A stretch of DNA of 64,000 nt from an archaeon. Lineage in GTDB: Archaea > Nanobdellota > Nanobdellia > Pacearchaeales > GW2011-AR1. The stretch covers positions 141 through 64,140 of the forward strand of contig JBDRCH010000002.1 of assembly GCA_043821945.1 (NCBI GenBank), written 5' to 3'. Positions 9,734 through 35,047 of this stretch are shown here, one piece after another. The number at the start of each line of letters is the position of its first letter. The stretch's first letter is position 1. Made by a program: the position numbers and the translations under genes. The notes beneath the pieces are model-generated. The model was not told the origin of the DNA, did not search any database, and saw only the letters and a list, made by a program, of their open reading frames with translations.

Positions 9734-9773
9734 TTTGGATACTTTTTTAAATGTTTTTTTCTTAAATAAATTT

Positions 9774-21156: not shown

Positions 21157-21435
21157 ATGAGAATAAAAAAGATTTCAGAAGTCATAGGTCAGAAGGTTTT
21201 TACTGATTCTGGAGATTATTTTGGGGAAATAGAAGAGGCAAATTTATCTGAAAATAAAATTGAGGGGTGGAGAATAAAAGTTGGAGGCAGTATTGTTTCA
21301 TTAATTGGTGGAGCAAGAGGAGTAATAATTCCTCATCAATTTGTTAAAGCAATGAGTGATATTTGTTTGATAAATAAATCTGCCTTGCCAAATCCAGATT
21401 CAGATTTTGATGAGGTCCCTGAAGATCTTATATAA
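21157..21435 (+). CDS. PRC-barrel domain protein
   Basis: 92 aa. The pattern IGQKVFTDSGDYFGEIEEANLSENKIEGWRI is typical of PRC barrels. Confidence 0.5.
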   Translation: MRIKKISEVIGQKVFTDSGDYFGEIEEANLSENKIEGWRIKVGGSIVSLIGGARGVIIPHQFVKAMSDICLINKSALPNPDSDFDEVPEDLI

Positions 21436-21926: not shown

Positions 21927-21988
21927 ATTTCTTAGGTAATTAGTTTATTTTCAGAAACATATTTAAATCTGTTTTCATAAATGTTTAT

Positions 21989-23221: not shown

Positions 23222-23260
23222 ATTAGGAAACCTCTTGATAAATTTATTTTATTTCTCATC

Positions 23261-23572
23261 TTATTTTAATGGCTGAAACATCTTTGCCTGTCTTGATAAA
23301 ATTTCTAAATCTTCTTTTCTCGCGAAGTTTGAAAACTCGCTCGCAATTATTTCTAAAAATGACTTTATTCTTTCTATATCTTGTTTTAATATTTCCATTT
23401 CTTTTTTTATTTCTAAAATCTTTTGAATATTTTGTTCTTTGGTTTCAATTAAATTTTGTCCTATCAAAAGTGTTCTGTCTTTTAGAATTCTTTGTTTTTC
23501 TTCTAAATCCCTTAACTTAGTATTAGTCTCACCAAAATTTTGATTTAGATAATTTCCTTGGTTCACTTCCAT
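23261..23572 (-). CDS. Small coiled-coil protein
   Basis: 103 aa, almost entirely heptad-like E/K/L/I sequence. Confidence 0.45.
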   Translation of the reverse strand: MEVNQGNYLNQNFGETNTKLRDLEEKQRILKDRTLLIGQNLIETKEQNIQKILEIKKEMEILKQDIERIKSFLEIIASEFSNFARKEDLEILSRQAKMFQPLK

Positions 23573-23676: not shown

Positions 23677-25965
23677 ATGCAATTCAAAAAAGATGACAAA
23701 CCTTATTCATATGATGTTCGTAGAGAGGGGAGCGAAGATGTTGTTTATGTAAATTATCTTGGACTCCCTTATGTGCCTAGTCTTTCTGATTATCCTGAAG
23801 TTATGGAAAGGACTATCGACCTTTTGATGGAGAATCCTCATGTTTCTAGAATTGTTTTTGTGCAGCAGAAAAATTATAATTATGATTTTCAAGAGACTGC
23901 TTTGCTTTTAGAGATTGCCCAAGTTTATGTTTATCTTGTTAAGCAAGAGAAAATTTTGTCTAAAGAAAAACTCATCACTAGTTTTGAGCAATTTTTCTCT
24001 CAAAGATACAATGAGATTTTTTCTTTCCTTTTCTTGTTAAAGCAGGATCCTGTTGCAGCGCATAGTGAACTGAAGAAATTGATAATTCAAGCTAAAATAT
24101 TTTTAGAGAAGATTTCTGGAAGTCATAAAACAGATCAATCAAATTACTTGAACCTTTTAGAAAAAGTAATGGGATTACTTGAAAAAACAAAATTGATTCA
24201 ACTGGCTAAACCTTATATGGGAAATTATCCAAAAAGAGACAGAGAAATTTATCAAAGAATTTTTAAGCCGGATGTAATCCCAAATTTTACTTTTACGAGG
24301 CTTGTTTCTGATCTGACTGAAGATGCTGAAATTGTTAATCAGTACGAGATTTTTGATGGAGATCATGATTCTTCTCTTGTAACAATCTTGAAAAAAAAGA
24401 ATGAATCCAAGTTTTTTTATCACTTGAATCCTCCAGAAAATTCTTTGAGTGAGGATCATAATATGCTTTTGAATCTTGCAAGAGGAGTTTTAATTGAACA
24501 CCAACCTCGAGCAGAAGAGTTTATAGATACAGATAGAACACGCCAGGTTTTTTTGAATATCTCTAAAGATTTGCTGAGAGATTTAGCTGATACAAAGGGA
24601 ATTAAATTAAATTATTCTGATTTGAATAAATTAGCTAAAATTCTTGTCAGGCATACAATTGGTTTTGGGCTTATTGAAGTTTTGCTTCAAGATGATAAAA
24701 TTCAGGATATTGTTTTGAATGCACCTATTTCAATGACAAATGTTTTTTTGAGGCATCAAAGCTATGACGAGTGTTTTACAAATATCCTTCCTAGTCAAGA
24801 AGATGTTGATTCATGGGCTGCTAAATTTAGGATGATCTCTGGAAGACCTCTTGATGAGGCTAATCCTATTCTTGACACTCAATTGGTTATTGGAAATATT
24901 AGAGCAAGAATTGCTATTGTGCAAAGACCTCTGTCTCCAGATGGATTATCTTATGCTATTCGAAGACACAGAGAAAATCCTTGGACTCTGCCTCTTTTTA
25001 TTAAAAATAAAATGTTGAATTCAATTGCTGCTGGTTTGTTTAGTTTTTTAATTGATGGTTCAAGAACATTTTTAGTTGCTGGAACAAGAAGTTCTGGAAA
25101 GACTTCTCTTCTCGGAAGTTTGATGTTAGAAATTATTTCAAAACACAGAGTAATTGTTTTAGAAGATACACTTGAACTTCCTGTTGAATCTATGAGAAAA
25201 TTGCATTATGATATTCTAAGAATGAAAGTCCGATCTGCTTTATTAAAGACAACAACAGAGATTTCAGCTTCAGAGGGGATAAGAACTTCTCTAAGATTAG
25301 GAGATAGTTCTTTGATTGTGGGTGAAATTCGAAGTGAAGAAGCTCTTGCTCTTTATGAAGCAATGAGGGTTGGAGCATTGGCAAATGTTGTTGCAGGTAC
25401 AATTCATGGTGCTTCTCCTTATGGTGTTTTTGATAGAGTTGTTAATGATCTTAATGTTCCTGCGACTTCATTTAAAGCAACTGATATTATTACTGTTTGT
25501 AATCCAGTAAAATCTCCAGATAGTCTGCATTCATGGAGGAGAGTTATGCAATTGTCAGAAGTCAGAAAACATTGGAAGGAAGATCCTTTGAGAGAAAATG
25601 GTTTTGTTGATTTGTTGAGGTATAATGTAGAAAAAGATGAATTAGAACCAACAGATGATTTGATTAATGGGGACAGCGAGATAATTAAAGGGGTTGCTTC
25701 TAATGTAAAAGGCTGGGCTGGAAACTGGGACGCTGTTTATGATAATATTTTGTTAAGAGCTAAAATAAAACAAGAGATTGTGGATGTTGCAGAAAAAACA
25801 GGCAACAATGAAATTTTAGAAGCCCAATTTAATACCCTTTCTAATCATTATTTTCATAAAATTTCTGATGAGATAAGACAGGAAATCGGACTTCCATGGA
25901 GTGAGAGAGTTTTTCCTGAATGGCAGAAGTGGTTGAAGGGAGAAGTTAAGAGGAGAGTTGTTTGA
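23677..25965 (+). CDS. Type II/IV secretion family ATPase (FlaI/PilB/VirB11-like) with long N-terminal extension
   Basis: 762 aa. Walker A AGTRSSGKTS, Walker B-like VIVLEDTLELP, His box GTIHGASP. Confidence 0.8.
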   Translation: MQFKKDDKPYSYDVRREGSEDVVYVNYLGLPYVPSLSDYPEVMERTIDLLMENPHVSRIVFVQQKNYNYDFQETALLLEIAQVYVYLVKQEKILSKEKLITSFEQFFSQRYNEIFSFLFLLKQDPVAAHSELKKLIIQAKIFLEKISGSHKTDQSNYLNLLEKVMGLLEKTKLIQLAKPYMGNYPKRDREIYQRIFKPDVIPNFTFTRLVSDLTEDAEIVNQYEIFDGDHDSSLVTILKKKNESKFFYHLNPPENSLSEDHNMLLNLARGVLIEHQPRAEEFIDTDRTRQVFLNISKDLLRDLADTKGIKLNYSDLNKLAKILVRHTIGFGLIEVLLQDDKIQDIVLNAPISMTNVFLRHQSYDECFTNILPSQEDVDSWAAKFRMISGRPLDEANPILDTQLVIGNIRARIAIVQRPLSPDGLSYAIRRHRENPWTLPLFIKNKMLNSIAAGLFSFLIDGSRTFLVAGTRSSGKTSLLGSLMLEIISKHRVIVLEDTLELPVESMRKLHYDILRMKVRSALLKTTTEISASEGIRTSLRLGDSSLIVGEIRSEEALALYEAMRVGALANVVAGTIHGASPYGVFDRVVNDLNVPATSFKATDIITVCNPVKSPDSLHSWRRVMQLSEVRKHWKEDPLRENGFVDLLRYNVEKDELEPTDDLINGDSEIIKGVASNVKGWAGNWDAVYDNILLRAKIKQEIVDVAEKTGNNEILEAQFNTLSNHYFHKISDEIRQEIGLPWSERVFPEWQKWLKGEVKRRVV

Positions 25966-26001
25966 GGAAGATTTAAATAAATTGATTTGTTTGGAAATAA
26001 A

Positions 26002-26199
26002 ATGAATTGGAATTTAAAGAATTTAATTGCAAAAGCAGAAGGAATTAATCCTGAAGATGTTACTGTGACATATATTCATGAGCAAAGAGAAAAAAATATT
26101 TATCCAAATGTAAGGTATGATTGCCCTGAAGAATTAATTTTGATGACAAGAAATGAATTTGATGAACTTGAGAAAGCTGTTTGGGAATGGGGAATATGA
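26002..26199 (+). CDS. Small acidic hypothetical protein
   Basis: ATG at 26002 (MNWNLKNLIAK...). Sits between the ATPase and the membrane protein. Confidence 0.35.
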   Translation: MNWNLKNLIAKAEGINPEDVTVTYIHEQREKNIYPNVRYDCPEELILMTRNEFDELEKAVWEWGI

Positions 26200-26252
26200 T
26201 TTTATTCTCCAGAACATTTATTAATTCTATTTTCATTTTTATGGGATAAAAG

Positions 26253-28436
26253 ATGGATGATGTAAGAGATATTATTTCAAAACATAGTGCAAGAATTGAA
26301 AATCAGATTAAAACTTCTAATTCTGAGAAGGTTAATTATAGCAAGGAGTATGAGCGTTTTAAGGGAGAGATGGCTCCTGAACTTACGCGATTTGAGAAAT
26401 GGTGCAAGAGTTTGGGAAATGTGATAAAATTAAAAGTTTCTGAAAAAGATAAAAATAGAATTAAAAGAGATATTGAAATTGCACATCTTGATATTGAACC
26501 TTGGCAAGCATTGGGCTTGAGTGTCATGACATTTATTAGTGTTTTTATAATTGGTTTTTTAATTTCTATTTCAATTGCTTTAATCAAGGGAAGCAAGGAA
26601 ATTGATTTTTTTGGAGGGACTATTTCAAATTTTCCTTTTTTGTTTTTTATTCTGATAATTGTTTTATCTATTTTTTTATTTTATTTTGTTAATGGTTATC
26701 CAAAAAGATTAGCAAGTAAATGGAGACTTAAAGCTTCGAGTCAGATGGTTCCTGCTATATTGTATATTGTTGTTTTTATGAGGCATACTCCTAATCTTGA
26801 AAAAGCAATTGCCTTTGCTTCGCAACATTTGCAGCCTCCTCTTGCTCTTGATTTTAAGAAAGTTTTTTATGATGTGGAAATTGGAAAATTTTCTACAATT
26901 AAAGAAAGCCTTGATAATTATCTTGAGAATTGGAGAGATTATTCTGTGGAATTCATTGAAGCTTTTCATTTGATTGAAAGCAGTTTGTTTGAACCTGATA
27001 ATTCAAGAAGAATAACTACCTTGGAGAAATCTCTTCAGGTTGTTCTTGATGGAGTTTATAATAAGATGTTGAGATTTACTCATAGTGTGAGAAGCCCTTT
27101 GGTTAATGTTTATATGCTCACTGTTGTATTACCTGTTTTAGGAATTGCACTCTTGCCTCTTGCTTCTGCAATGGTCGGGGGAATGATTCAATGGTACCAT
27201 GTTTTTATTCTATACACTCTTTTATTTCCATTTTTATCTTTTTATCTTACTGATAGAATTATGATGTTAAGACCGGGGGGTTATGGGGAAACAAAACTAC
27301 TTGAAAGAAATCCTCTTTATTATAAATATTCAAATAATAAATATTATCTAACTACTTTTTTGATTTGCCTTCCTTTTTTTATAATTGGTTTTTTACCTTT
27401 AATTTTTCAATATACCCCTATTCCAGGATTTTTGGGTTTGCAAAGTGATTATTCTTTTTCAGATTTTGGTTTGGGTTTTTTTGAAGGAAAACTTTTTGAT
27501 TTTAAAATTGATGGGAATAGAACTGTTGGTCCTTTTGGAATTGGAGCTTTAATTTTTGGAATGTTTATTCCATTTGGGGTAGCTTTGTTTTTTTCAATAG
27601 TTTATAAAAAGAAAACCCAGGAACTTATTGTAGAAAGAGAAAAAACTAAGCAACTGGAGAGTGAATTTAATAATTCTTTATTTCAATTAGGAAATAGAAT
27701 GGGAAATGGTATGCCTCCGGAACTTGTTTTTGGGAAAGTTGCAGAATCCTCTCGGGGTTTAAGAACCGAAGATTTTTTTCGAAGAGTTAATTATAATATT
27801 CAACAAATGGGAATGAGTGTTGATAGGGCTATTTTTGATCAGGAAAGAGGGGCTATTGTGTATTATCCTTCTGATCTTATTGCAACAAGCATGAGGGTTC
27901 TGATAGAATCTTCTAAAAAAGGTTTAAAAATTGCCGCATTAAGTCTTATGAGTATTTCTGAATATGTTAAGAATATACAGAAAATAACAGATAGGTTAAA
28001 GGACATGCTTGCAGAAGTTGTTTCTGACATGAAGAGTAATATGACTTTTTTAGCGCCACTGCTTTCAGGAATTGTTGTTGGTCTTGCTGCAATGATTGTT
28101 TTTATTTTGAATAAAATAGAATTAGATAAATTAGGAGAGGCAGGAACAATTGGTTTGGGAAGCTTAGAAAGTTTTGTTGGGCCTGACGGAATTTTTTCTA
28201 TTGTGAACATGATTCCACCTTATTATTTGCAGATTGCAATTGGTATTTATCTGATTCAGATAATTTTTATTTTAACAAGAACTCTTGTGACAGTTGATTC
28301 TGGTCAAGATAAACTTGAAAGAACAAACAAGGTCGGAAAAAATCTTACAAGAGGAATTTTGCTTTATTTTATCACTGCTTTATTATCAACTCTTGCGTTA
28401 TTTTTCTTGAGTTCAATTGTACTTGGAGGATTTTAG
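26253..28436 (+). CDS. Large polytopic membrane protein, putative pilus platform (FlaJ/TadC/PilC-like role)
   Basis: 727 aa with many TM helices separated by cytoplasmic helical regions. Position right after the secretion ATPase. Family assignment is by context only. Confidence 0.5.
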   Translation: MDDVRDIISKHSARIENQIKTSNSEKVNYSKEYERFKGEMAPELTRFEKWCKSLGNVIKLKVSEKDKNRIKRDIEIAHLDIEPWQALGLSVMTFISVFIIGFLISISIALIKGSKEIDFFGGTISNFPFLFFILIIVLSIFLFYFVNGYPKRLASKWRLKASSQMVPAILYIVVFMRHTPNLEKAIAFASQHLQPPLALDFKKVFYDVEIGKFSTIKESLDNYLENWRDYSVEFIEAFHLIESSLFEPDNSRRITTLEKSLQVVLDGVYNKMLRFTHSVRSPLVNVYMLTVVLPVLGIALLPLASAMVGGMIQWYHVFILYTLLFPFLSFYLTDRIMMLRPGGYGETKLLERNPLYYKYSNNKYYLTTFLICLPFFIIGFLPLIFQYTPIPGFLGLQSDYSFSDFGLGFFEGKLFDFKIDGNRTVGPFGIGALIFGMFIPFGVALFFSIVYKKKTQELIVEREKTKQLESEFNNSLFQLGNRMGNGMPPELVFGKVAESSRGLRTEDFFRRVNYNIQQMGMSVDRAIFDQERGAIVYYPSDLIATSMRVLIESSKKGLKIAALSLMSISEYVKNIQKITDRLKDMLAEVVSDMKSNMTFLAPLLSGIVVGLAAMIVFILNKIELDKLGEAGTIGLGSLESFVGPDGIFSIVNMIPPYYLQIAIGIYLIQIIFILTRTLVTVDSGQDKLERTNKVGKNLTRGILLYFITALLSTLALFFLSSIVLGGF

Positions 28437-28490
28437 TTAAGTTTATTAATTATATTTCTTTAATTTTTACATGTATAATAAAAGAGGGGT
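28434..28490 (+). promoter_or_regulatory. Repeated promoter/5' cassette, copy 1 (TATA-like TTTATTAA 29 nt before the ATG)
   Basis: ttagttaagtttattaatt...tttttacATGtataataaaagaggggtt is nearly identical to copy 2 at 29544. TTTATTAA at 28442, ATG at 28471. Confidence 0.55.
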
Positions 28491-29543
28491 TTGTCAACAG
28501 TCATTACTACCTTAATAATAATTCTTTTAGTTTTAGTAGCAACAGGAATTTTATGGGTGGTTGTTTCTAATTTAATTAATAGTAGTTCAGAACAAGTTCA
28601 ATTCCAGGGCTTAACAATTCGTTTGGAGGTGCAAAAAGTTTTGGTGGAGGATAGTGGCTCAATTGATGTTCTTGTAGAAAGATTATCTGGAAAAGGAGAT
28701 ATTACTGGAATAAAGTTTGTTGTTAGTGATGGAGTTAATTTTGAGAGTTTTGAGGAAGATACAACAATTAGTGAATTAAGTGAAGAGACTTTTACATTAG
28801 ATTATGAAGGAATTGTGAAAGGGATAACTGTTGCCCCTATTTTTGAATCAAAATCTGGAAAAGAGTTTGTTGGAAAGATTGTCAATAAAAAGGAATTCAC
28901 TAGTGAAGAAATTATTGAAAGTCTTGGGGGGGTCTCTTGGTGGAAGCTTGATGGAAATGCTAATGATGAAATTGGGGGAAATGGGGGTTCTTGTGGCGAT
29001 TGCCCTGAATTTATTGCAGATTTAGAAAGAGGAAAAGTTGCAAGTTTTGATTATACAAATAAAGAATTTATTTCTTTTGAGGATAATCTTGTTGATGTTA
29101 GTAATGATGATTTTAGTATTTCAATTTGGGTAAATTCTAGTGGGGGTAGCCCGATTATTAATCCTAGAATTTTTGGAATAAAAGGAGTTTATGGTCTTCA
29201 AATTTTGTGGTTGGATAAAAAAGATATTGGAGTAAGAATTGATAATGGGGGAGTTAATGTCCATAGATTACACACTACTTCAAATGTGATGGTTGATTCT
29301 GACCAATGGTATCATATTGTTTTAACAGTTTCTTCAGCAACAATTGATAAAATTTATGTTAATGGAGAAGATGAAAATTTAGAAGTTATCAGAAGCTATT
29401 CTGGAACAGGAGTATCTAGTATTGGGAGAGGACATAACAACCTCAATTATAATTGGAATGGTCTTATTGATGATGTTATAGTTTTTGATAGGGTATTGTC
29501 AGAAAAGGAAGTAGAAGCATTGTATAGATTAGATTCAAATTAA
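28491..29543 (+). CDS. Pilin-like protein with C-terminal LamG/concanavalin-like domain (5' end apparently frameshifted)
   Basis: Hydrophobic N-terminus STVITTLIIILLVLVATGILWVV. The region WWKLDGNANDEIGG...FSISIWV...WYHIVLT...GLIDDVIVFDRVLS is typical of LamG_3. The track start is a TTG. An upstream ATG (28471) encodes MYNKRGV in another frame. Confidence 0.6.
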   Translation: MSTVITTLIIILLVLVATGILWVVVSNLINSSSEQVQFQGLTIRLEVQKVLVEDSGSIDVLVERLSGKGDITGIKFVVSDGVNFESFEEDTTISELSEETFTLDYEGIVKGITVAPIFESKSGKEFVGKIVNKKEFTSEEIIESLGGVSWWKLDGNANDEIGGNGGSCGDCPEFIADLERGKVASFDYTNKEFISFEDNLVDVSNDDFSISIWVNSSGGSPIINPRIFGIKGVYGLQILWLDKKDIGVRIDNGGVNVHRLHTTSNVMVDSDQWYHIVLTVSSATIDKIYVNGEDENLEVIRSYSGTGVSSIGRGHNNLNYNWNGLIDDVIVFDRVLSEKEVEALYRLDSN

Positions 29544-29581
29544 TTAGTTAAGTTTATTAATTCTTTTTATTTGATTTTTAC
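29544..29581 (+). promoter_or_regulatory. Repeated promoter/5' cassette, copy 2
   Basis: TTTATTAA at 29553, 29 nt before the ATG at 29582. About 60 nt nearly identical to copy 1, including the first 7 codons. Confidence 0.55.
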
Positions 29582-29731
29582 ATGTATAATAAAAGAGGGG
29601 TTATTGCTGATTATCTTCCATGGTTGCTCATAGCTGTTGCTGTTCTTGCATTGCTAATTGCAACTATTTTTTTACTTAAGGAAAAAGGAATTTCTCTAAT
29701 TGATTCAATTAAAGAATTATTTAGGTCATAA
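29582..29731 (+). CDS. Mini pilin-like protein with class III signal peptide (not in ORF track)
   Basis: 49 codons, hand-translated: MYNKRGVIADYLPWLLIAVAVLALLIATIFLLKEKG... Confidence 0.5.
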   Translation: MYNKRGVIADYLPWLLIAVAVLALLIATIFLLKEKGISLIDSIKELFRS

Positions 29732-29732
29732 G

Positions 29733-29879
29733 ATGGATTTGACAATAACTCAGTTGATAAAAATAATTCTTGGGATTGTTGTAGTTGTTGCTGTGGTTGT
29801 TGGATTTGGATATTTTTTTAATGATTATGTCAAAGGATTTTTTGATGGTCTTCCAGGATTATTTTGGAGTTTAATATGA
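29733..29879 (+). CDS. Micro membrane protein (not in ORF track)
   Basis: 48 codons: MDLTITQLIKIILGIVVVVAVVVGFGYFFNDYVKGFFDGLPGLFWSLI. Its 3' end overlaps the next gene start. Confidence 0.4.
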   Translation: MDLTITQLIKIILGIVVVVAVVVGFGYFFNDYVKGFFDGLPGLFWSLI

Positions 29880-30442
29880 ACAGAAAAATAAAATCAAAGA
29901 TTTTGCATTATGATTTTTTTCCAAAAAATCGTAAGGGATTTTTATTAGCAGAAGAAACGTTGAAGATAATTATTGCTGTGATTTGTATTGGATTTTTAGT
30001 TTATTTTTTGACTTCACTTTATTTAAAGAATAAAGAGAACAAAGATTTTGAATTAGCAAAAGCTTCATTAGAGCATTTGGTTTGGGAAATAAATACTATG
30101 AAAGAGGGCGAATCAAGAGGGGTTGAGATTTATAATCCTAAGGGGTGGTGGATTAGTTCTTGGCCTTATGGAGATATTAGGCCTAATCAGTGTACAAATC
30201 TTAATTGGGAGAATTGTATTTGTATTTGTCCAAGTAATGATCCTTGGGATTCTGTCAAGACTTTTTTTAGTAGTGCTACAATGATTACAGAATCTGCTGA
30301 TAAATGTGATGATAAAGGTATATGTGTTGAGATTACAGAAGAATTTCTTGTGAAAAAAGATAATCAACAAACTATTATGAAGATAGTTGATCTCCCACTT
30401 AAACTTGAAATTAAGGGAGGAGTTATTTCAAAAGCAAAATGA
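29876..30442 (+). CDS. Cys-rich pilin-like protein
   Basis: ATG at 29876 gives MNRKIKSK...NRKGFLLAEETLKIIIAVICIGFLVYF. Mature part contains CTNLNWENCICICP...CDDKGICV. Confidence 0.5.
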   Translation: MNRKIKSKILHYDFFPKNRKGFLLAEETLKIIIAVICIGFLVYFLTSLYLKNKENKDFELAKASLEHLVWEINTMKEGESRGVEIYNPKGWWISSWPYGDIRPNQCTNLNWENCICICPSNDPWDSVKTFFSSATMITESADKCDDKGICVEITEEFLVKKDNQQTIMKIVDLPLKLEIKGGVISKAK

Positions 30443-30540
30443 ATCTTGATGAAGTGATAAAATATATAATCTGGATTGTAGTTTTTAGTTTGGCTTTGGG
30501 AGGTTTGTATTTTATGCTAAAGAAATTTGGTTTAATGTAA
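30439..30540 (+). CDS. Micro membrane protein (not in ORF track)
   Basis: 33 codons: MNLDEVIKYIIWIVVFSLALGGLYFMLKKFGLM. ATGA overlap with the upstream stop. Resembles 29733..29879. Confidence 0.4.
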   Translation: MNLDEVIKYIIWIVVFSLALGGLYFMLKKFGLM

Positions 30541-30541
30541 A

Positions 30542-31366
30542 ATGAAATTGATAAATAATAAAAGAGGTGAATTGACAACGCAACAAATAGTTGGTCTTAT
30601 TATCTTGATAATTAGTTTTGCAGTTATCTTGTTTTTTATATTTAGGTTGAATCTAGGTGAGATAACTAATAAAGAGATATGTCATAATTCTGTTGTTTTG
30701 AGAGATCAATCCAAATATGTTTCAGGTCCTATTGATTGCAGAACAAGTTATGTTTGTATTTCAGGAGGTGGAAAGTGTGATAATATGAATCCAACAATTA
30801 CTAAAAAGATTGATATGAAAAAAACAGATAATGAGGAAATTAAAAATGAAATTATGAAAGCAATTTCAGATGAAATGGTTGATTGTTGGTGGATGTTTGG
30901 TGAGGGGAAAGTTAATTATGTTAAGGGTATTACTTGGGAAGATGTATTTGGAGGGAATGTTTGTGCAATTTGTAGTATCATAAGGTTTGATGATAAAATA
31001 CAGGAAGGTCTTCGAGGAGAATCGATTGATTTGGAAAAGTTATATAATTTTATGAAAACTTATCCTAGCAAAAACGATAACAAATTTTATTATCTCTATA
31101 GGGATCTTGAGTCTAATCAAGATATGGAGATTTCTTTTGATAAAAAATATAGCATTTTAACAGGGATTGCGGGAATAAATGCTAAGGGAAAAGTTGGATC
31201 AGCTCTTTGGGATGTTATTAAGGCTCCCCTTTGGATTACTAAGGTTTTTAAAGATGAGGAAGAAGCTAAAAAAGAATTTCCTAATGAGGGTCCAATTCCT
31301 ATTAGAATATTTGATGATCAGAAACTTGAAGATTTTATGTGTGGCGAGTTCATCACAAAAGCATAA
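30542..31366 (+). CDS. Cys-rich pilin-like protein
   Basis: N-terminus MKLINNKRGELTTQQIVGLIILIISFAVILFFIF (KRG then hydrophobic helix). 274 aa with multiple Cys. Confidence 0.55.
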   Translation: MKLINNKRGELTTQQIVGLIILIISFAVILFFIFRLNLGEITNKEICHNSVVLRDQSKYVSGPIDCRTSYVCISGGGKCDNMNPTITKKIDMKKTDNEEIKNEIMKAISDEMVDCWWMFGEGKVNYVKGITWEDVFGGNVCAICSIIRFDDKIQEGLRGESIDLEKLYNFMKTYPSKNDNKFYYLYRDLESNQDMEISFDKKYSILTGIAGINAKGKVGSALWDVIKAPLWITKVFKDEEEAKKEFPNEGPIPIRIFDDQKLEDFMCGEFITKA

Positions 31367-31396
31367 TTTTATTAATTCTTTTTTTGTTTGTTGAAT
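31365..31396 (+). promoter_or_regulatory. Related promoter, copy 3 (TTTATTAATTC 29 nt before the ATG)
   Basis: tttattaattctt at 31368 and ATGtgtaaaagagggg at 31397 share the TATA-like box, spacing and aaaagagggg (KRG-coding) core with copies 1 and 2. Confidence 0.45.
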
Positions 31397-31798
31397 ATGT
31401 GTAAAAGAGGGGCGATACTAATTGAGAATGTTATTTTTATTGTTCTTAATTTGGTTTTTCTTTCGATTCTTTTTTTATTTGTGTTTTCTAAAATGGGGAG
31501 TGCTGCAATTTTAGAAGAAAGATATGCAAAAGAAATTGCCCTATTGATTGATGGCGCTAAACCAGGAATGAAAATTAGTTTGAATATTGAAAATGCATTA
31601 AATAAAAAAGATAAAAATTGGAATGGAAAAATAATTTCTATTCAAGATAATATTGTAACTGTTCGGCTTAGAGAAAAAGGGGGATATTCTTATTCATTCT
31701 TTAATGATGTTGATTTTGATAAACTTTATCATCTTTCCGAGAATGGAAATTATTTTGAGTTGAAAGTATTAAAAAAACAAAATGAAAAAGTGGAATAA
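31397..31798 (+). CDS. Pilin-like protein
   Basis: MCKRGAILIENVIFIVLNLVFLSILFLFVF has KRG followed by a hydrophobic segment. Confidence 0.5.
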   Translation: MCKRGAILIENVIFIVLNLVFLSILFLFVFSKMGSAAILEERYAKEIALLIDGAKPGMKISLNIENALNKKDKNWNGKIISIQDNIVTVRLREKGGYSYSFFNDVDFDKLYHLSENGNYFELKVLKKQNEKVE

Positions 31799-32333
31799 AA
31801 AAGGTGGAGACAAAGTAATGACCTTATACTGGTTTGCGATTTTATTTCTTGTAGCTGGAGCAATTGTCTATATGACTGCACTTTATTATGGAAAGCCATA
31901 TGATATTAGAGAAATTGAAGCGAATTTTTTAACAAATAAAGTTGCTGATTGTTTGAGTGAAGGAGGAAGATTAGTTGATAATTGGAGAGACATTAAGACT
32001 GAGAATTTTTTGCAGAAGTGTGGTTTGACTTTTAATGTTGAGGATACAGAAGGTTGGAAAGCGCAAGAGCAGTATTATGTGGAAGTGAATTTTCGTAAGT
32101 TTGATGGAAGTTCTGTTGAAAAAGAAAGTATTATTATTGGAAATAAAAATTTAAAAGATTTTTGTGATAAAGAAGGGGTTAATCTTCCTGTATGCTCTGA
32201 AAGAGAATTTTATGTTTTAGGTCCAAGAAATATTGGAGGAGAAGATAAACTTAAACTTGATACTGATGCAAATACTCAATATATAATTAAAATTAAATCA
32301 ATTGTTAGAAAGACAGAGAAAAATGTTCAATAA
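31782..32333 (+). CDS. Pilin-like protein
   Basis: MKKWNKKGGDKVMTLYWFAILFLVAGAIVYM. 183 aa. Confidence 0.45.
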   Translation: MKKWNKKGGDKVMTLYWFAILFLVAGAIVYMTALYYGKPYDIREIEANFLTNKVADCLSEGGRLVDNWRDIKTENFLQKCGLTFNVEDTEGWKAQEQYYVEVNFRKFDGSSVEKESIIIGNKNLKDFCDKEGVNLPVCSEREFYVLGPRNIGGEDKLKLDTDANTQYIIKIKSIVRKTEKNVQ

Positions 32334-32829
32334 AAAAGCACAAGTTGGTGAGACAATAACATGGTTTGTTGCAACAATAATTATAATTGTTATTTTAGCA
32401 ATTGCTATTTTTATTGTTTCATCGAGGATATTTGAGAATGATAAAGTATTGAAAGTAGAAAAGATAGATAGTGATTTACTTGTTACAAAAAGTTTGTTGG
32501 GTTATTTATTGACTGATAAGAATTATGATGGGTTTAAGGAAATTGAACTTTCTGAAGGAGTAATTGATTTTGATAATGCTTTTTTTGATTCAGTATTTAA
32601 TTTATATAAAAAAGAATATTCTTCTAATCAGGTTTTGTTTAGAATTAATTCAGAATATGAAAAATGGGAAGGATATTCTAAATCTGCAGGATTACCTAAC
32701 AAAATTTTACTCAATCGTGGAGGTTTGCCTTCTAATATGAGGGCAACTAAATTTTTTTATGAAAGTATAAATTTAAAAAATATTGGAGATAAAAAGAAAA
32801 ATACGATCATTGAATTAATGCTCAATTAA
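32323..32829 (+). CDS. Pilin-like protein
   Basis: The internal ATG gives MFNKKAQVGETITWFVATIIIIVILAIAIF. The track start at 32302 is less likely. Confidence 0.45.
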   Translation: MFNKKAQVGETITWFVATIIIIVILAIAIFIVSSRIFENDKVLKVEKIDSDLLVTKSLLGYLLTDKNYDGFKEIELSEGVIDFDNAFFDSVFNLYKKEYSSNQVLFRINSEYEKWEGYSKSAGLPNKILLNRGGLPSNMRATKFFYESINLKNIGDKKKNTIIELMLN

Positions 32830-32830
32830 A

Positions 32831-33148
32831 ATGAAAAACAAAATTAATAAGAGAGGAGATATTCCTGTGACAATTTTGGTAATTGGAGTTTTTGCAGTTT
32901 GCACACTTGCAATTTTAAGTTTTAAGTTTTTTGATATTAAGACAAATGAAGATTTTTATAAGATTATTGGAGCTTCTGAAGAAATGAATACTCAAATTCA
33001 GAAATATTATTTTTATGATAATGTTGAAGTTAGTGAAGGAAATATAGAAAAATTTTTGAATATTCAAAATGGTTTTCTTGAAATTGAAAAGAAGAATAAA
33101 GACAAAATAATTGTTAAAATTGAAATTCCTGTTTCTGGACTAAAATAA
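32831..33148 (+). CDS. Pilin-like protein
   Basis: MKNKINKRGDIPVTILVIGVFAVCTLAIL. 105 aa. Confidence 0.5.
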   Translation: MKNKINKRGDIPVTILVIGVFAVCTLAILSFKFFDIKTNEDFYKIIGASEEMNTQIQKYYFYDNVEVSEGNIEKFLNIQNGFLEIEKKNKDKIIVKIEIPVSGLK

Positions 33149-33182
33149 AAACATTTATAAATAATAATCTATTAATCAAAGC

Positions 33183-33515
33183 ATGTTGAATAAAAGAGGT
33201 CAGGGTTTGAGTACTAATGCTATTGTGTTGATTATCTTAGGGGTTGTTGTTTTAACTGTTATGATAATTGGATTTACAATGGGTTGGGACAGACTTGCAC
33301 CTTGGTTGTCAAGTGGAGATAATTTAGCTCAACTAAACACTGAATGTAAAACTGCTTGTGCTACACTTAGTACTGCTGATTTTTGTTCTAAACAAAAAAC
33401 TGTTAGGATTACTGAAGCTATAGGGAGTATTAATGATAAAGATAAAAAAACTTGTGATGCTTTATCAAAAGTTCCTGAAACTGGAGTTGATAAATGCCCA
33501 GCAATAACTTGTTAA
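33183..33515 (+). CDS. Cys-rich pilin-like protein (paralog pair member 1)
   Basis: MLNKRGQGLSTNAIVLIILGVVVLTVMIIGFTMGWDRLAPWL..., with 6 Cys in the mature part. Confidence 0.6.
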   Translation: MLNKRGQGLSTNAIVLIILGVVVLTVMIIGFTMGWDRLAPWLSSGDNLAQLNTECKTACATLSTADFCSKQKTVRITEAIGSINDKDKKTCDALSKVPETGVDKCPAITC

Positions 33516-33570
33516 TAAAATTTTCATTTTTCAAAACAATTTTAAACGCTTTTTCTTTTAATTAATTATT

Positions 33571-34038
33571 ATGATTGAAGCAAAACAAAAAACTAATAGA
33601 CAGAAAAATGATAAAAGTCTAAACATTGGGCTTATTGTGTTGATTATTCTGACAGTTTTAGTTTTGTTAGCTGTTTTAATTGGATTTACTTTTGGTTGGG
33701 ATAGTCTTGCTTTTTGGTTGCCAGGAGATAATCTTCTTGAAATTCAGGAACAATGCAATCTTGCTTGTTCTAAAAATGGTAATTCTTATGATTATTGTAT
33801 TGTTGAAAGGACATTGAAAACGAAAAATGAACTAAATCTTAGTTGTAAAGAATTTTTAGAACAAGGTTATGAAATAAATGATTGCACTGATTCTTGTGAT
33901 TGTGAGAATGTTGGGGGAATTTGGATTGCTCCTGAAAAAGGGGTATCTTGTGCAGCAATATTACCTTATGACAAAAAAGGAGAAAGAGTTGAATATATTT
34001 TTGCTGGTGCAGATAAAAAAGAGTGTTGTATTTATTAA
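33571..34038 (+). CDS. Cys-rich pilin-like protein (paralog pair member 2)
   Basis: ...KSLNIGLIVLIILTVLVLLAVLIGFTFGWDSLAFWLPGDNL.... Shares the GFTxGWDxLAxWL..GDNL...C..AC block with 33183..33515. 11 Cys. Confidence 0.6.
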   Translation: MIEAKQKTNRQKNDKSLNIGLIVLIILTVLVLLAVLIGFTFGWDSLAFWLPGDNLLEIQEQCNLACSKNGNSYDYCIVERTLKTKNELNLSCKEFLEQGYEINDCTDSCDCENVGGIWIAPEKGVSCAAILPYDKKGERVEYIFAGADKKECCIY

Positions 34039-34078
34039 ACACAAAAAATTTAAATTCTAATTATCTTAATTAATTATA

Positions 34079-34195
34079 ATGGCACATGCAGATTCTGAAA
34101 GGCGAAATAAGAGAAAGGATAAAAAGCGTGAAAAGAAAAAACATCCGTATAAGAAAGGTGGAAGACAAAGAACAATGAATGTGGGACAAAAATAG
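34079..34195 (+). CDS. Possible 38-aa highly basic peptide (not in ORF track)
   Basis: Hand-translated MAHADSERRNKRKDKKREKKKHPYKKGGRQRTMNVGQK. No homology recognised. Confidence 0.2.
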   Translation: MAHADSERRNKRKDKKREKKKHPYKKGGRQRTMNVGQK

Positions 34196-34225
34196 TTTTA
34201 TAAATTGTTTTTGCCAAGTTTATTT

Positions 34226-35047
34226 ATGGAAGAGGTGATTTTTTTATTTGTTTTGGCATTGGTCTGGATTATTTTTGCAAGTATTCAGGATTTGAAAAAA
34301 CGAGAAGTTGCAAATTGGATTAGTTTTTCTCTTATAATCTTTGCTCTTGGTTTTAGATTTTTTTATTCTCTTTTTTCTGAAAGTTTTGGATTTTTTTATC
34401 AGGGCTTAATTGGATTGGCAATATTTTTTATTCTTGGAAATTTACTTTATTATGGAAGAATGTTTGCAGGGGGTGATGCAAAATTAATGATTGCTTTAGG
34501 AACAGTTTTGCCTTTTTCTGAAAACTTTTTCATTAATCTGAAAGTATTCTTTAGTTTTATATTTATTTTTCTGCTTATTGGTGGAATTTACGGGTTAACC
34601 TTTAGTGTTTTTTTGAGTTTGAGAAATTTTAATGAATTTAAAAAACAGTTTTTTGACAGGCTGAAAAAAAATAAAAGATTTTCTTATTGTATTATGTTTG
34701 TTGGGATTGTTTTAATGGGGGTTGGATTTCTTGAGGGGTTGTTTTTTGTTTTAGGAATCATTGTTTTTGTTTTTCCTTATTTTTATTTTTATGCGAAATC
34801 AGTTGATGAATCTTGCATGATTAAAAGAATTAAATCAAGTGAGCTTACAGAAGGAGATTGGCTTTATGAAGATGTAAAAATAAATAATAAGATAATTAAA
34901 AAAAGTTGGGAAGGTCTTAATGCAAAAGATCTTGGATTAATCAAAAAACAAAATAAAGTCGTTTTAGTTAGACAAGGGATTCCTTTTGTCCCTGTTTTTT
35001 TAATTAGTTTTTTGGTATTGTTGTATTTATGGTTTAATGGAGTTTGA
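34226..35047 (+). CDS. Prepilin/preflagellin peptidase (A24 family, PibD/FlaK-like)
   Basis: Polytopic. First Asp context ASIQDLKKREVANW and second Asp motif FAGGDAKLMIALG. ATG at 34226; the track start at 34205 is a TTG. Confidence 0.75.
   Translation: MEEVIFLFVLALVWIIFASIQDLKKREVANWISFSLIIFALGFRFFYSLFSESFGFFYQGLIGLAIFFILGNLLYYGRMFAGGDAKLMIALGTVLPFSENFFINLKVFFSFIFIFLLIGGIYGLTFSVFLSLRNFNEFKKQFFDRLKKNKRFSYCIMFVGIVLMGVGFLEGLFFVLGIIVFVFPYFYFYAKSVDESCMIKRIKSSELTEGDWLYEDVKINNKIIKKSWEGLNAKDLGLIKKQNKVVLVRQGIPFVPVFLISFLVLLYLWFNGV

What the first reader, a model, noticed from the sequence alone, without database searches (positions are those of the whole stretch)
23677..35047. About 11.5 kb type IV pilus-like locus with an unusually large pilin complement
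One co-oriented block on the + strand. It encodes a 762-aa FlaI/PilB-type ATPase with a long N-terminal extension, a 727-aa polytopic membrane protein, and about 10 proteins with (K/R)G followed by a hydrophobic helix (class III signal peptide-like). An A24 prepilin peptidase closes the block. The pilin-like set is heterogeneous: one carries a LamG/lectin-like domain, several are Cys-rich, and one is only 49 aa. No archaellum-specific genes are visible (FlaB-type archaellins, FlaC-H). An adhesive or surface-interaction fibre seems more likely than a motility organelle. In a small-genome archaeon this could be a cell-cell attachment apparatus, but that is inference.
Basis: partly seen in the sequence, partly recalled or inferred. 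Interest (0 to 1): 0.7.

Follow-up and report, generated by a model that had tools for sequence, protein, structure and literature searches.

The report
Conserved pilus operon of Pacearchaeota
This is a real, complete type IV pilus-like gene cluster that nearly all relatives of this tiny-genome archaeon keep almost unchanged, and in some relatives its pilus subunits carry enzymes that cut bacterial cell walls, which suggests the fibre is used to contact bacteria.

Summary
Window 23677-35047 (+) holds a secretion ATPase (762 aa), a 727-aa membrane protein that I show to be a divergent PilC/GspF/TadC-type platform, 10-11 pilin-like genes and an A24 prepilin peptidase with both catalytic Asp. The host is a low-GC Pacearchaeota-type DPANN archaeon. 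The ATPase groups with archaeal GspE, CpaF/TadA and FlaI, not VirB11. No archaellum genes are present.

The "large, heterogeneous" pilin set is mostly the standard set of this lineage. Nine families in fixed order recur in 22-31 of 32 species-level relatives, except the leaderless p59 (15). Only the LamG gene, the 70-aa ORF and the p155 duplicate are specific to this genome. The 49-aa protein is a helix-only, Flp/EpdE-like subunit with its own conserved promoter-like box, and is my candidate for the main fibre subunit.

New points:
- The LamG gene lies in a 1111-bp insertion flanked by 59-nt repeats, and its leader is out of frame.
- The pilins are depleted in N-glycosylation sites and several are Cys-rich.
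- In seven related loci, pilin-like subunits are fused to peptidoglycan hydrolases (SLT, Amidase_2, Glucosaminidase).

Verdict: a lineage-specific variant of a known kind, most likely an adhesive host-contact fibre with exchangeable lectin or muramidase subunits.

The parts
23677..25965 (+). Secretion (assembly) ATPase, 762 aa. It has a ~290-aa N-terminal region, about 180 aa longer than FlaI, and a helical C-terminal extension.
   Evidence: Pfam T2SSE; NCBIfam TadA and FlaI about 1e-36. PDB sequence matches: afGspE 2OAP 3e-25, CpaF 4e-22, FlaI 3e-13, VirB11 2e-6. Foldseek top hits are afGspE, FlaI and CpaF. Walker A G469-K475, E496-D497, G549-E550-R552 and H577 are invariant in 44 homologues. 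Homologues are 76-82% identical and almost all exactly 762 aa. The N-terminal 308 aa have no PDB sequence match.
25987..26199 (+). 70-aa ORF in the variable slot between ATPase and platform. Probably cargo, not a machine part.
   Evidence: Found in 1 of 32 related loci. In relatives this slot is empty or holds unrelated genes, such as toxin-antitoxin pairs, type I R-M genes, membrane proteins and secreted enzymes.
26253..28436 (+). Platform protein, 727 aa, about 8 TM helices. A divergent single-gene PilC/GspF/TadC/FlaJ homologue with two cytoplasmic helical domains.
   Evidence: No direct Pfam or NCBIfam hit. However, 18 of 53 diverse family members hit Pfam T2SSF, best 3e-10. The family profile's top PDB hit is the GspF cytoplasmic domain, on the motif LFQLGNR..G.P.E. 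AlphaFold model pLDDT 86.7, pTM 0.85. Foldseek: EpsF/OutF cytoplasmic domains with probability 0.96-1.0, TM 0.67-0.74, rmsd about 3 A. Present in 32 of 32 loci at 67% median identity.
28433..28491 (+). Left copy of a 59-nt direct repeat: stop codon of the preceding gene, TATA-like box, and ATG plus 6 codons (MYNKRGV). The right copy is 29544-29602. Together they bracket a 1111-bp LamG insertion.
   Evidence: the repeat finder family D6: 93% identity, spacing 1111. Pairwise alignment.
28491..29543 (+). Accessory pilin-like protein with a C-terminal LamG/ConA-like lectin domain (350 aa from TTG). Its ATG leader (28471) is 1 nt out of frame with the body.
   Evidence: Laminin_G_3 1e-19. The TafC hit covers the LamG part only. 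The leader frame reads MYNKRGVCQQSLLP*, while the body frame reads **KRG|LSTVITTL. The L023 homologue has an intact leader, NNRG|LSTIVATLL. Present in 1 of 32 related loci, so it occupies a variable slot.
29582..29731 (+). p49: helix-only mini-pilin (mature ~43 aa). Candidate main fibre subunit, Flp/EpdE-like.
   Evidence: Family motif is K[KR]G|[IV][IV]x[DE]YLPW, then a TM helix, then the amphipathic helix LK.KG.SLIDKIKNLF. Found in 29 of 32 loci at 58% identity. A TATA-like box lies 26-33 nt upstream of the start codon in 79% of 62 orthologues, against 2-15% for most other genes.
29733..29879 (+). p59 (48 aa): small conserved membrane protein without a leader (M.ELTI.QLIK...).
   Evidence: Consensus. 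Found in 15 of 32 loci by tblastn and in 34 ORF hits. Its start matches the PGAP call.
29876..30442 (+). p192 (188 aa): Cys-rich pilin-like protein, leader NRKG|FLLAEETLK (Glu at +5).
   Evidence: Found in 30 of 32 loci. 7 Cys. The L088 relative carries a Glucosaminidase domain.
30542..31366 (+). p274: largest core pilin-like protein, 8 Cys, leader NKRG|ELTTQQIV, conserved CWWMFGEGK motif.
   Evidence: Found in 31 of 32 loci.
31397..31798 (+). p136 (133 aa): pilin-like protein, leader CKRG|AILIEN (Glu at +5).
   Evidence: Found in 31 of 32 loci. Promoter-like box in 54% of orthologues. The L016 and L011 orthologues carry a C-terminal SLT domain.
31782..32333 (+). p183: pilin-like protein, 4 Cys, leader NKKG|GDKVMTLYWF.
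   Evidence: Found in 30 of 32 loci. The L003 orthologue has an inserted Amidase_2 domain and the L080 orthologue an inserted SLT domain.
32323..32829 (+). p175 (168 aa): pilin-like protein, leader NKKA|QVGETITW.
   Evidence: Found in 22 of 32 loci.
32831..33148 (+). p105: pilin-like protein, leader NKRG|DIPVTILV.
   Evidence: Found in 28 of 32 loci.
33183..33515 (+). p110: small pilin with 6 Cys, leader NKRG|QGLSTNAI. Alternative candidate for the main subunit.
   Evidence: Found in 28 of 32 loci. Promoter-like box in 48% of orthologues.
33571..34038 (+). p155: genome-specific divergent duplicate of p110 (10 Cys) with a degenerate cleavage site (DKS).
   Evidence: Paralogy E=1e-15. 91-nt DNA repeat D3. 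In relatives both queries hit the same single gene.
34205..35047 (+). A24 prepilin (class III signal) peptidase, 280 aa. The real start may be the ATG at 34226.
   Evidence: Pfam Peptidase_A24 1e-12; NCBIfam FlaK 3e-11, below its cut-off. D29 and G89-G90-D91 are conserved at 95% or more in 42 orthologues. Found in 32 of 32 loci.
21157..23572 (.). Conserved neighbours that are possible but unproven accessory parts: PRC-barrel protein (21157-21435 +), two paralogous membrane proteins (21435-21926 and 21989-22552, +), and two coiled-coil proteins (22553-23221 and 23261-23572, -).
   Evidence: Found in 31 of 32 close loci. The two membrane and two coiled-coil genes keep the same arrangement next to the ATPase in distant loci: L086, L088 and the P0418 locus. 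No family hits.

Best explanation
The block is the complete, chromosomally fixed type IV filament (T4P-like) assembly operon of a Pacearchaeota-type DPANN archaeon.

Shown by the evidence:
- A GspE/TadA/FlaI-family ATPase with intact nucleotide-binding motifs.
- A single-gene PilC/GspF-type platform.
- An A24 aspartic peptidase.
- Eight to ten substrates with conserved [KR][GA]-hydrophobic leaders.

Inferred mechanism:
- The peptidase removes the short leaders.
- The ATPase and platform lift the hydrophobic N-terminal helices out of the membrane into a helical fibre.
- The bulk subunit is most likely the helix-only 43-residue p49, comparable to Flp of bacterial Tad pili or EpdE of Methanococcus.
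- The Cys-rich, non-glycosylated p192, p274, p136, p183, p175, p105 and p110 form a fixed priming or tip complex.
- One variable position directly after the platform gene carries an exchangeable functional subunit. Here it is a LamG lectin, currently with an out-of-frame leader.

Inferred function: a non-motile adhesive fibre for contact with other cells. In seven related genomes the same subunit families are fused to murein hydrolases, so the partner surface is plausibly a bacterial cell wall.

The confidence given (0.85) is for the identification as a type IV filament assembly system. Adhesion or host contact as the function is about 0.6.
For: Core parts:
- ATPase family and motifs.
- Platform: transitive T2SSF hits in 18 of 53 members, profile hit to GspF, confident model with the GspF cytoplasmic-domain fold.
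- Peptidase: catalytic D29 and the GGD91 motif are conserved.
- Leaders: nine consecutive ORFs, with the motif conserved in orthologue families.

Selection and conservation:
- The ATPase (74% median identity) and platform (67%) are more conserved than neighbouring housekeeping genes: RPA 61%, EF-1beta 53%, HIT 46%.
- Gene order is fixed in 44 loci.

p49 as bulk subunit:
- It is the most conserved pilin (58%).
- It lacks a globular domain.
- 79% of orthologues have a TATA-like box at leaderless-mRNA distance.

Surface function:
- LamG domain.
- SLT, Amidase_2 and Glucosaminidase domains on four different pilin scaffolds in seven loci, all at or above Pfam cut-offs.

Not an archaellum:
- No archaellin or Arl/Fla accessory genes.
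- Only one secretion ATPase in the window.
Against: - No filament has been seen. Expression is unknown.
- None of the pilins hits any Pfam or NCBIfam pilin family, including Flp and Class_IIIsignal. Their pilin nature therefore rests on the N-terminal motif, context and conservation.
- The identity of the major subunit is an inference. p110 is an alternative.
- The window's own genes carry no murein hydrolase, and its LamG gene lacks an in-frame leader.
- The ATPase model is only moderately confident (pLDDT 65).
- The hydrolase fusions occur in a minority of loci: 7 of about 60 with a readable pilin region.
Confidence: 0.85

Rival explanations
1. A short pseudopilus or 'functionalised' type IV machine, like a T2SS or the Sulfolobus bindosome. 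Under this reading it does not build a long fibre. It pushes or anchors class III signal-peptide proteins (lectins, muramidases) at the cell surface for substrate capture or secretion.
For: - A fixed set of about eight minor-pilin-like proteins resembles the GspG-K pseudopilus logic.
- Enzymes and a lectin carry class III-type leaders in the locus.
- NCBIfam BasE is hit at 5e-20.
- The 2026 preprint 10.64898/2026.04.22.720090 proposes such functionalised machines in archaea.
Against: - The BasE score is 72 bits against a cut-off of 1000.
- No substrate-binding proteins are in the locus.
- The helix-only p49, with its own promoter-like box, looks like a bulk fibre subunit.
- The two readings are not mutually exclusive.
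Confidence: 0.2
2. A DNA-uptake (competence-type) pilus that feeds a nucleotide-scavenging lifestyle.
For: - The organism has a small genome and the motor is extremely conserved.
- Castelle et al. 2021 (PMC8204110) propose that the Pacearchaeota with the most limited metabolism live on scavenged nucleotides. Type IV pili of small-genome CPR bacteria have been proposed to take up DNA (my own knowledge, not tested here).
Against: - No ComEC/ComEA-like or DNA-binding pilin was detected in the locus.
- There is no retraction ATPase.
- The accessory domains are lectin and murein hydrolases, which point to cell surfaces rather than DNA.
Confidence: 0.08
3. An archaellum, that is, a rotary swimming organelle.
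For: NCBIfam FlaI 6e-36 and FlaK 3e-11. FlaI is among the top structural matches.
Against: - Both scores are far below the equivalog cut-offs: 124 against 550, and 43 against 330.
- No archaellin (PF01917) and no ArlF, G, H, X or CDE genes in the window or in 10-kb flanks of orthologous loci.
- The ATPase has large extra domains, which the 2026 preprint associates with non-motility systems.
Confidence: 0.02
4. A conjugative or type IV secretion-like DNA or protein transfer system (VirB11 and VirB6 type).
For: Weak NCBIfam hits to TrbB (4e-20) and VirB11 (2e-17).
Against: - These hits are much weaker than those to TadA, FlaI, afGspE and CpaF.
- The membrane protein is T2SSF-like.
- An A24 peptidase and class III leaders are present.
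- The locus sits in a conserved housekeeping context in every relative, not on a mobile element.
Confidence: 0.01

Closest known systems
Archaeal type IV filament 'System 2' (Makarova et al. 2016 clade 2; Sivabalasarma & Albers 2026), e.g. Haloferax PilB/PilC loci and the Archaeoglobus fulgidus GspE (PDB 2OAP) locus
   Same: - The ATPase has extended N- and C-terminal regions.
- The platform is encoded by a single gene.
- There are several class III pilins plus a pilin-like protein without a leader, with membrane proteins nearby and adhesin-like accessory proteins.
- afGspE is the best sequence and fold match to the ATPase.
- Makarova 2016 notes nanoarchaeal ATPases in this clade.
   Different: - None of the pilins matches PilA or any known pilin family.
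- The platform escapes Pfam T2SSF.
- The peptidase is encoded inside the operon.
- The set of nine pilin-like families is fixed, in a fixed order.
- arCOG membership could not be tested here.
Epd pilus of Methanococcus maripaludis (archaeal System 1)
   Same: - An operon of about 11 genes with its own dedicated prepilin peptidase.
- Several essential minor pilins.
- A major pilin that lacks a globular domain.
- A class III-leader protein with a sugar-binding domain.
   Different: - Epd has two separate platform genes; this locus has one 727-aa gene.
- The Epd ATPase lacks the long extensions.
- There is no detectable sequence relation between the pilins.
Bacterial Tad/Flp pilus (TadA/CpaF, TadB/C, Flp, TadV)
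   Same: - CpaF is the second-best solved relative of the ATPase.
- p49 resembles Flp: about 43 mature residues, helix only, and an acidic-Tyr pair just after the cleavage site (G|xxx[DE]Y here, G|xxxxEY in Flp by my recollection).
   Different: - No Pfam Flp hit in 37 family members.
- TIGR03819 scores 127 bits against a cut-off of 373.
- One platform gene instead of two.
- No secretin or outer-membrane parts.
- Many more pilin-like genes.
Extracellular murein lytic transglycosylase proteins of Pacearchaeota and Woesearchaeota (Castelle et al. 2021, PMC8204110) and archaeal peptidoglycan hydrolases (PMC12352652)
   Same: SLT, amidase and glucosaminidase domains in archaea that make no murein, interpreted in the literature as tools against bacterial walls.
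   Different: Here the hydrolase domains sit on small class III-leader pilin-like subunits inside the conserved pilus operon. They are not on giant stand-alone proteins. I found no paper in the held library describing this linkage.

Membership tests
Type IV filament (T4P/TFF) superfamily | Hexameric secretion ATPase of the GspE/PilB/TadA/FlaI family with Walker A/B, Asp and His boxes | tested here: met
   Pfam T2SSE 3e-13. PDB afGspE 3e-25, CpaF 4e-22. Fold match. Motif residues invariant in 44 homologues.
Type IV filament (T4P/TFF) superfamily | Polytopic platform protein of the PilC/GspF/TadC/FlaJ (T2SSF) family | tested here: met
   The window protein itself has no hit. However, 18 of 53 family members hit PF00482, and the model contains the EpsF/OutF cytoplasmic-domain fold with TM 0.67-0.74.
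Type IV filament (T4P/TFF) superfamily | A24 aspartic prepilin peptidase with two catalytic Asp (second one in GxGD) | tested here: met
   PF01478 1e-12. D29 and GGD91 conserved at 95% or more in 42 orthologues.
Type IV filament (T4P/TFF) superfamily | Substrates with class III signal peptides (short charged leader, G/A at -1, hydrophobic helix) | tested here: met
   Home-made FlaFind-like scan. Motif conserved in orthologue alignments. The published FlaFind/PilFind programs were not available.
Type IV filament (T4P/TFF) superfamily | An assembled filament on the cell | not testable with these tools
   Needs microscopy or proteomics.
Archaellum | Archaellin genes (PF01917) and ArlF/G/H plus ArlX or ArlCDE | tested here: not met
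   No such Pfam or NCBIfam hits in the locus or its flanks. None in the flanks of orthologous loci.
Archaellum | ATPase reaches the NCBIfam FlaI equivalog cut-off | tested here: not met
   124 bits against a cut-off of 550.
Bacterial Tad/Flp pilus | Flp-family pilin (Pfam Flp_Fap) and TadA equivalog | tested here: not met
   No Flp hit in 37 p49 family members at E<=1. TIGR03819 scores 127 bits against 373.
Bacterial Tad/Flp pilus / archaeal System 1 (Epd) | Two separate platform genes (TadB + TadC; EpdJ + EpdK) | tested here: not met
   A single 727-aa gene in all 32 loci.
Archaeal TFF System 2 | Extended ATPase, single platform gene, several pilins including leaderless pilin-like proteins | tested here: met
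   These are descriptive criteria taken from the preprint.
Archaeal TFF System 2 | Membership of the defining arCOGs, or placement in clade 2 of the ATPase tree | not testable with these tools
   No arCOG or MacSyFinder models, and no reference ATPase sequences, were available.
Conjugative T4SS (VirB11/VirB6) | VirB11 equivalog ATPase, VirB6/TrbL membrane protein, VirB4/VirD4 | tested here: not met
   VirB11 scores 63 bits against a cut-off of 250. The membrane protein is T2SSF-like. No such genes among the locus and flank ORFs scanned.
Sulfolobus bindosome (Bas) | BasE/BasF pair plus class III-leader substrate-binding proteins | tested here: not met
   BasE scores 72 bits against a cut-off of 1000. 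No substrate-binding protein domains in the locus.

The most novel reading that the evidence does not exclude
Pacearchaeota-type archaea use this invariant, non-glycosylated, disulfide-rich type IV fibre as a cross-domain contact organelle. A modular subunit at the tip (lectin, lytic transglycosylase, amidase or glucosaminidase, depending on the lineage) binds and locally opens the peptidoglycan of a bacterial host or prey. If so, the long-unknown partners of this large DPANN clade would be bacteria, and the pilus operon would be the attachment and penetration device.
Probability: 0.3. Interest if true: 0.85.

Novelty: new variant of a known kind. Interest (0 to 1): 0.58.

Why it matters
Pacearchaeota and Woesearchaeota are among the most abundant uncultured archaea, and their partners are unknown. 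Three results bear on that.

- **Conservation.** One pilus operon is kept nearly unchanged across the clade and is more conserved than neighbouring housekeeping genes. That marks it as central to their lifestyle.
- **Annotation.** The work gives a parts list for about ten gene families now annotated as "hypothetical", and shows that the 727-aa "hypothetical" membrane protein is the platform.
- **A testable hypothesis.** Murein hydrolases have been repeatedly fused to pilin-like subunits in relatives. This gives a specific, testable idea of what the fibre touches, namely bacterial walls. It may also explain why many archaeal peptidoglycan hydrolases lack a recognised Sec/Tat signal peptide.

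For this window alone, the locus is an ordinary member of that clade-wide system, with a lectin module in the variable slot.

Tried and rejected
- Direct Pfam and NCBIfam searches of the platform, all core pilins and the five conserved upstream genes gave nothing significant. A faint FlaC_arch hit on the 222-aa coiled-coil protein (E=0.09) was dismissed as coiled-coil noise.
- Scanning 37 p49 family members against Pfam found no Flp or Class_IIIsignal match.
- The NCBIfam TafC hit of the LamG protein covers only the shared LamG domain. It does not indicate Tat-fimbriae.
- The diverse platform alignment A1 could not seed a locus search because it has no conserved stretch. A single-protein search was used instead.
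- The whole-chain Foldseek search of the platform gave only poor global E-values, because only cytoplasmic domains of GspF-type proteins are in the PDB. The domain-level matches were used.
- The ATPase N-terminal 308 residues have no PDB sequence relative. The ATPase model has low confidence in the core, so I make no claim about the fold of the extension.
- The sigma-70 promoter and terminator scan was at background level and is irrelevant for an archaeon. There are no tRNA genes in the window.
- Three of the four distant platform homologues whose contigs I fetched to test neighbour conservation keep the ATPase-platform-pilin layout (L086, L088 and the P0418 locus). In three further platform homologues (L084, L085, L087) the platform gene is not next to an ATPase. 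The operon layout is therefore not universal across the wider family.
- I considered the upstream PRC-barrel, membrane and coiled-coil genes as pilus accessories but could not decide. PRC-barrel proteins are also known archaeal division factors (my own knowledge), so they are listed only as candidates.

Full report
**What is in the sequence**

The window is AT-rich (about 29% GC). It carries archaeal housekeeping genes: Orc1/Cdc6, both PolD subunits, a class I Tyr/Trp-type tRNA synthetase (Pfam tRNA-synt_1b) and EF-1beta by Pfam; a Hef-like helicase, an RPA-like OB-fold protein and RadA read from their sequences and the Pfam labels of their orthologues. Exact look-ups identify it as a 64-kb contig of an NCBI 'MAG: archaeon' with locus tags ABH811_xxxxx. 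The closest relatives are labelled Pacearchaeota, Woesearchaeota or Nanoarchaeota.

Between 23677 and 35047 all real genes are on the + strand:
- a 762-aa ATPase
- a 70-aa ORF
- a 727-aa membrane protein
- a 350-aa LamG protein
- ten small genes, labelled here by the ORF length: p49, p59, p192, p274, p136, p183, p175, p105, p110 and p155
- a 280-aa A24 peptidase

My refined start codons coincide exactly with the public PGAP calls, which name all the core small proteins 'hypothetical'.

**Check of the observation**

The ATPase hits Pfam T2SSE (3e-13) and NCBIfam TadA and FlaI (about 1e-36). The FlaI model aligns only from residue 289. This confirms a long N-terminal extension and also a C-terminal one. 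The peptidase hits Peptidase_A24 (1e-12) and the LamG protein hits Laminin_G_3 (1e-19).

A FlaFind-like scan of every ORF in the window found nine consecutive ORFs from 29582 to 34038 with a short basic leader, [KR][GAS], and a strongly hydrophobic helix. The remaining ~52 kb holds only one other credible case, at 9702-10559.

**The two large proteins**

*ATPase.* By sequence it is closest to Archaeoglobus GspE (2OAP, 3e-25) and Caulobacter CpaF (4e-22). FlaI follows (3e-13), and VirB11 is far behind (2e-6). A Foldseek search with the AlphaFold model gives the same order. The Walker A, acidic, GE(I/V)R and His-box residues are invariant in 44 homologues.

*Membrane protein.* It has no direct Pfam or NCBIfam hit. 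An exhaustive search found 1025 family representatives. Of 53 diverse members, 18 hit Pfam T2SSF, best 3e-10. The family profile's best PDB hit is the GspF cytoplasmic domain, on the conserved LFQLGNR..G.P.E motif. A confident model (pLDDT 86.7, pTM 0.85) contains a domain that superposes on EpsF/OutF cytoplasmic domains (probability up to 1.0, TM 0.67-0.74, rmsd about 3 A).

It is therefore a divergent single-gene PilC/GspF/TadC/FlaJ-type platform.

**Peptidase and substrates**

In 42 orthologues the peptidase keeps D29 and the G89-G90-D91 motif, the two catalytic aspartates of A24 enzymes. Orthologue alignments show that each pilin family keeps its own cleavage-site motif:

| Family | Conserved site |
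|---|---|
| p49 | K[KR]G\|[IV][IV]x[DE]YLPW |
| p192 | KKG\|FLLAEETLK |
| p274 | KKG\|ELTTQQIV |
| p136 | K.G\|.IL.EN |
| p183 | KKG\|.DKILS.YWF |
| p175 | KKA\|QVGET.TW |
| p105 | K.G\|DIPVTILV |
| p110 | KRG\|QGLSTNAI |

p59 has no leader. p155 is a local, divergent duplicate of p110 with a degenerate site. None of these proteins hits any known pilin family.

**Comparison across genomes**

A scan of one genome per species returned 80 related loci. In the 32 loci with full flanks:
- The ATPase (74% median identity), platform (67%) and peptidase (56%) are present in all 32.
- p49, p192, p274, p136, p183, p105 and p110 are present in 28-31, p175 in 22, and the leaderless p59 in 15.
- The LamG gene and the 70-aa ORF each occur in only one.

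Gene order is the same in 44 loci. The usual distance from platform to peptidase is 4.0-4.5 kb. It is 5.8 kb here because of the LamG insertion and the p110 duplication.

The 'unusually large' complement is therefore the norm for this clade. The motor is more conserved than the adjacent housekeeping genes RPA, EF-1beta and HIT, and nearly all ATPase homologues are exactly 762 residues long. That argues for strong selection.

The gap between ATPase and platform is an insertion hot spot for unrelated cargo: toxin-antitoxin pairs, a type I R-M system, membrane proteins and secreted enzymes.

**The LamG gene**

It lies in a 1111-bp segment bracketed by 59-nt direct repeats (28433-28491 and 29544-29602, 93% identity). 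Each repeat holds the stop codon of the preceding gene, a TATA-like box and the first seven codons, MYNKRGV.

In the LamG copy this leader is one nucleotide out of frame with the body. The ATG frame stops after 14 codons. The body frame reads stop-stop-KRG-LSTVITTL and can start only at the TTG that encodes that Leu. A fragmentary homologue in L023 has an intact leader, NNRG|LSTIVATLL.

As sequenced, the lectin subunit lacks a cleavable leader. I cannot tell whether this is a real mutation, slippage at the A4/G4 runs or an assembly error.

**Which subunit makes the fibre**

p49 is the most conserved pilin. Its mature form is about 43 residues and consists only of the hydrophobic helix plus a short amphipathic helix. 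A TATA-like box lies 26-33 nt upstream of its start codon in 79% of 62 orthologues. The figures are 66% for the peptidase gene, 54% for p136 and 48% for p110, against 2-15% for the other genes.

This suggests separate, probably strong, leaderless transcription. By analogy with the globular-domain-less EpdE and Flp pilins, I take p49 as the likely bulk subunit. p110 is the alternative. This step is inference.

**Properties of the pilins**

Several are Cys-rich. They also avoid N-glycosylation sequons:
- The ten core proteins have 1 NxS/T site against 8.8 expected from shuffles (P about 0.001).
- 22 other window proteins have 55 against 55.4 expected.
- The S-layer-like 603-aa protein at 41142-42953 has 32 against 13 expected.
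- The depletion holds in orthologue families, with observed/expected ratios of 0.18-0.45.

From general knowledge, archaeal pilins are usually heavily N-glycosylated. These appear to be kept bare and are probably stabilised by disulfides instead.

**Clues to function from relatives**

In seven related loci, class III-leader pilin-like subunits carry peptidoglycan hydrolase domains, all at or above Pfam thresholds:

| Locus | Subunit | Domain | Pfam E-value |
|---|---|---|---|
| L013, L051 | pilin-like gene directly after the platform (the LamG slot) | SLT | ~1e-12 |
| L016, L011 | p136 orthologue, C-terminal fusion | SLT | 4e-5, 3e-6 |
| L080 | p183 orthologue, inserted | SLT | 2e-4 |
| L003 | p183 orthologue, inserted | Amidase_2 | 2.5e-17 |
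| L088 | p192-like protein | Glucosaminidase | 1.3e-19 |

The SLT copies keep the ES and GLMQ signature motifs. Three enzyme classes on four scaffolds imply repeated independent recruitment.

The literature already notes murein lytic transglycosylases in Pace- and Woesearchaeota and proposes bacterial hosts (PMC8204110, PMC9723730). It also notes that peptidoglycan hydrolases are prominent in Nanoarchaeota and that only 32% of archaeal ones carry a recognised Sec/Tat signal peptide (PMC12352652). I found no paper in the held library that links them to pilin subunits. The window itself has no such domain. Its variable slot holds a lectin instead.

**Neighbours**

Upstream lie a PRC-barrel gene, two paralogous membrane-protein genes and two divergently transcribed coiled-coil genes (21157-23572). 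These are present in 31 of 32 close loci. The two membrane and two coiled-coil genes keep the same arrangement beside the ATPase in distant loci whose platform is only about 30-50% identical. They have no family hits. They may be accessory parts, but a role in cell division is equally possible, so I list them only as candidates.

**Comparison with known systems**

DPANN type IV pilus islands made largely of 'dark-matter' pilins have been described in general terms (PMC6393860). The archaeal TFF classification lists DPANN members in Systems 1 and 4A.
- Shared with System 2: an extended ATPase, a single platform gene and a leaderless pilin-like protein. The ATPase's best solved relative is afGspE.
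- Shared with the Epd system: an in-operon peptidase, a helix-only pilin and a sugar-binding class III protein.
- Shared with Tad/Flp: the CpaF-like ATPase and the Flp-like mini-pilin.

It fails the tested membership criteria for the archaellum, Tad/Flp, Epd (two platform genes), the bindosome and the conjugative T4SS. I therefore file it as a lineage-specific variant of the archaeal type IV filament family, probably nearest System 2.

**Verdict**

The locus is not peculiar to this genome. It is the clade-wide, strongly conserved pilus operon of Pacearchaeota-type archaea, here with a lectin cassette in the variable slot.

The most likely function is an adhesive, non-motile host-contact fibre with a fixed minor-pilin complex and an exchangeable functional subunit. 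My confidence is about 0.85-0.9 for 'type IV filament machine' and about 0.6 for adhesion or host contact. The reading that it targets bacterial cell walls is supported only by relatives, and I put it at about 0.3.

Noticed in passing
window 28433-28491 and 29544-29602 (with 28471-28515): A 59-nt direct repeat (93% identity, spacing 1111 bp) brackets the LamG gene. It duplicates the promoter-like box and the first 7 codons of p49. In the LamG copy the ATG leader is 1 nt out of frame with the gene body.
   Followed up: yes
L003 18096-19319; L080 16072-17178; L088 15190-16266; L013 12349-13107; L051 2508-3233; L016 11096-12088; L011 10618-11628: In seven orthologous loci, pilin-like subunits with class III-type leaders are fused to peptidoglycan hydrolase domains (SLT x5, Amidase_2, Glucosaminidase). 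The fusions sit on four different pilin scaffolds.
   Followed up: yes
window 29582-34038 versus 41142-42953: The core pilins are strongly depleted in N-glycosylation sequons (1 against 8.8 expected; orthologue families 0.18-0.45 of expectation). The S-layer-like 603-aa protein with Ig-like domains and a C-terminal anchor is enriched (32 against 13). 22 other proteins are neutral.
   Followed up: yes
window 21157-23572: A PRC-barrel gene, two paralogous 4-5 TM membrane-protein genes and two divergently transcribed coiled-coil genes lie upstream of the ATPase. The last four keep their place beside the ATPase even in distant loci (L086, L088). No family hits; they could be pilus accessories or division proteins.
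   Followed up: partly
window 25966-26252 and the equivalent slot in L001-L083: The ATPase-platform intergenic slot is an insertion hot spot. It ranges from 20 bp to 9.8 kb and holds toxin-antitoxin pairs, a type I restriction-modification system (L029), ~335-aa membrane proteins, a chondroitinase-B-like secreted protein (L005) and other genes. The window's 70-aa ORF is one such non-conserved item.
   Followed up: partly
window 28442, 29553, 31368, 33154 (each 29 nt before an ATG): TTTATTAA or TTTATAAA boxes sit exactly 29 nt upstream of the start codons of the LamG leader, p49, p136 and p110. This suggests internal promoters with leaderless transcripts. The geometry is conserved in 79%, 54% and 48% of p49, p136 and p110 orthologues.
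   Followed up: yes
window 9702-10559 (probable start at 9774, MLDKG|SVGIGIII): A stand-alone ~260-aa protein with a class III-like leader, far from the operon. No Pfam hit. It could be an additional substrate of the peptidase.
   Followed up: no
window 48185-48982: A MinD/ParA-type ATPase, recognised by eye from its deviant Walker A motif (GVISLKGGVGKTS); no family search was run on it. It lies 13 kb downstream. MinD-like ATPases are reported to accompany some archaeal type IV systems, but no linkage was tested.
   Followed up: no
L084, L085, L087: In some more distant members of the platform family the gene stands alone, with no adjacent secretion ATPase or pilin string. The operon layout is therefore not universal across the wider family.
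   Followed up: partly
L001/L002 1-2552: The Hef-like helicase next to the orthologous locus carries an intein with a LAGLIDADG endonuclease. The window's copy (18819-20363, 514 aa) does not.
   Followed up: no
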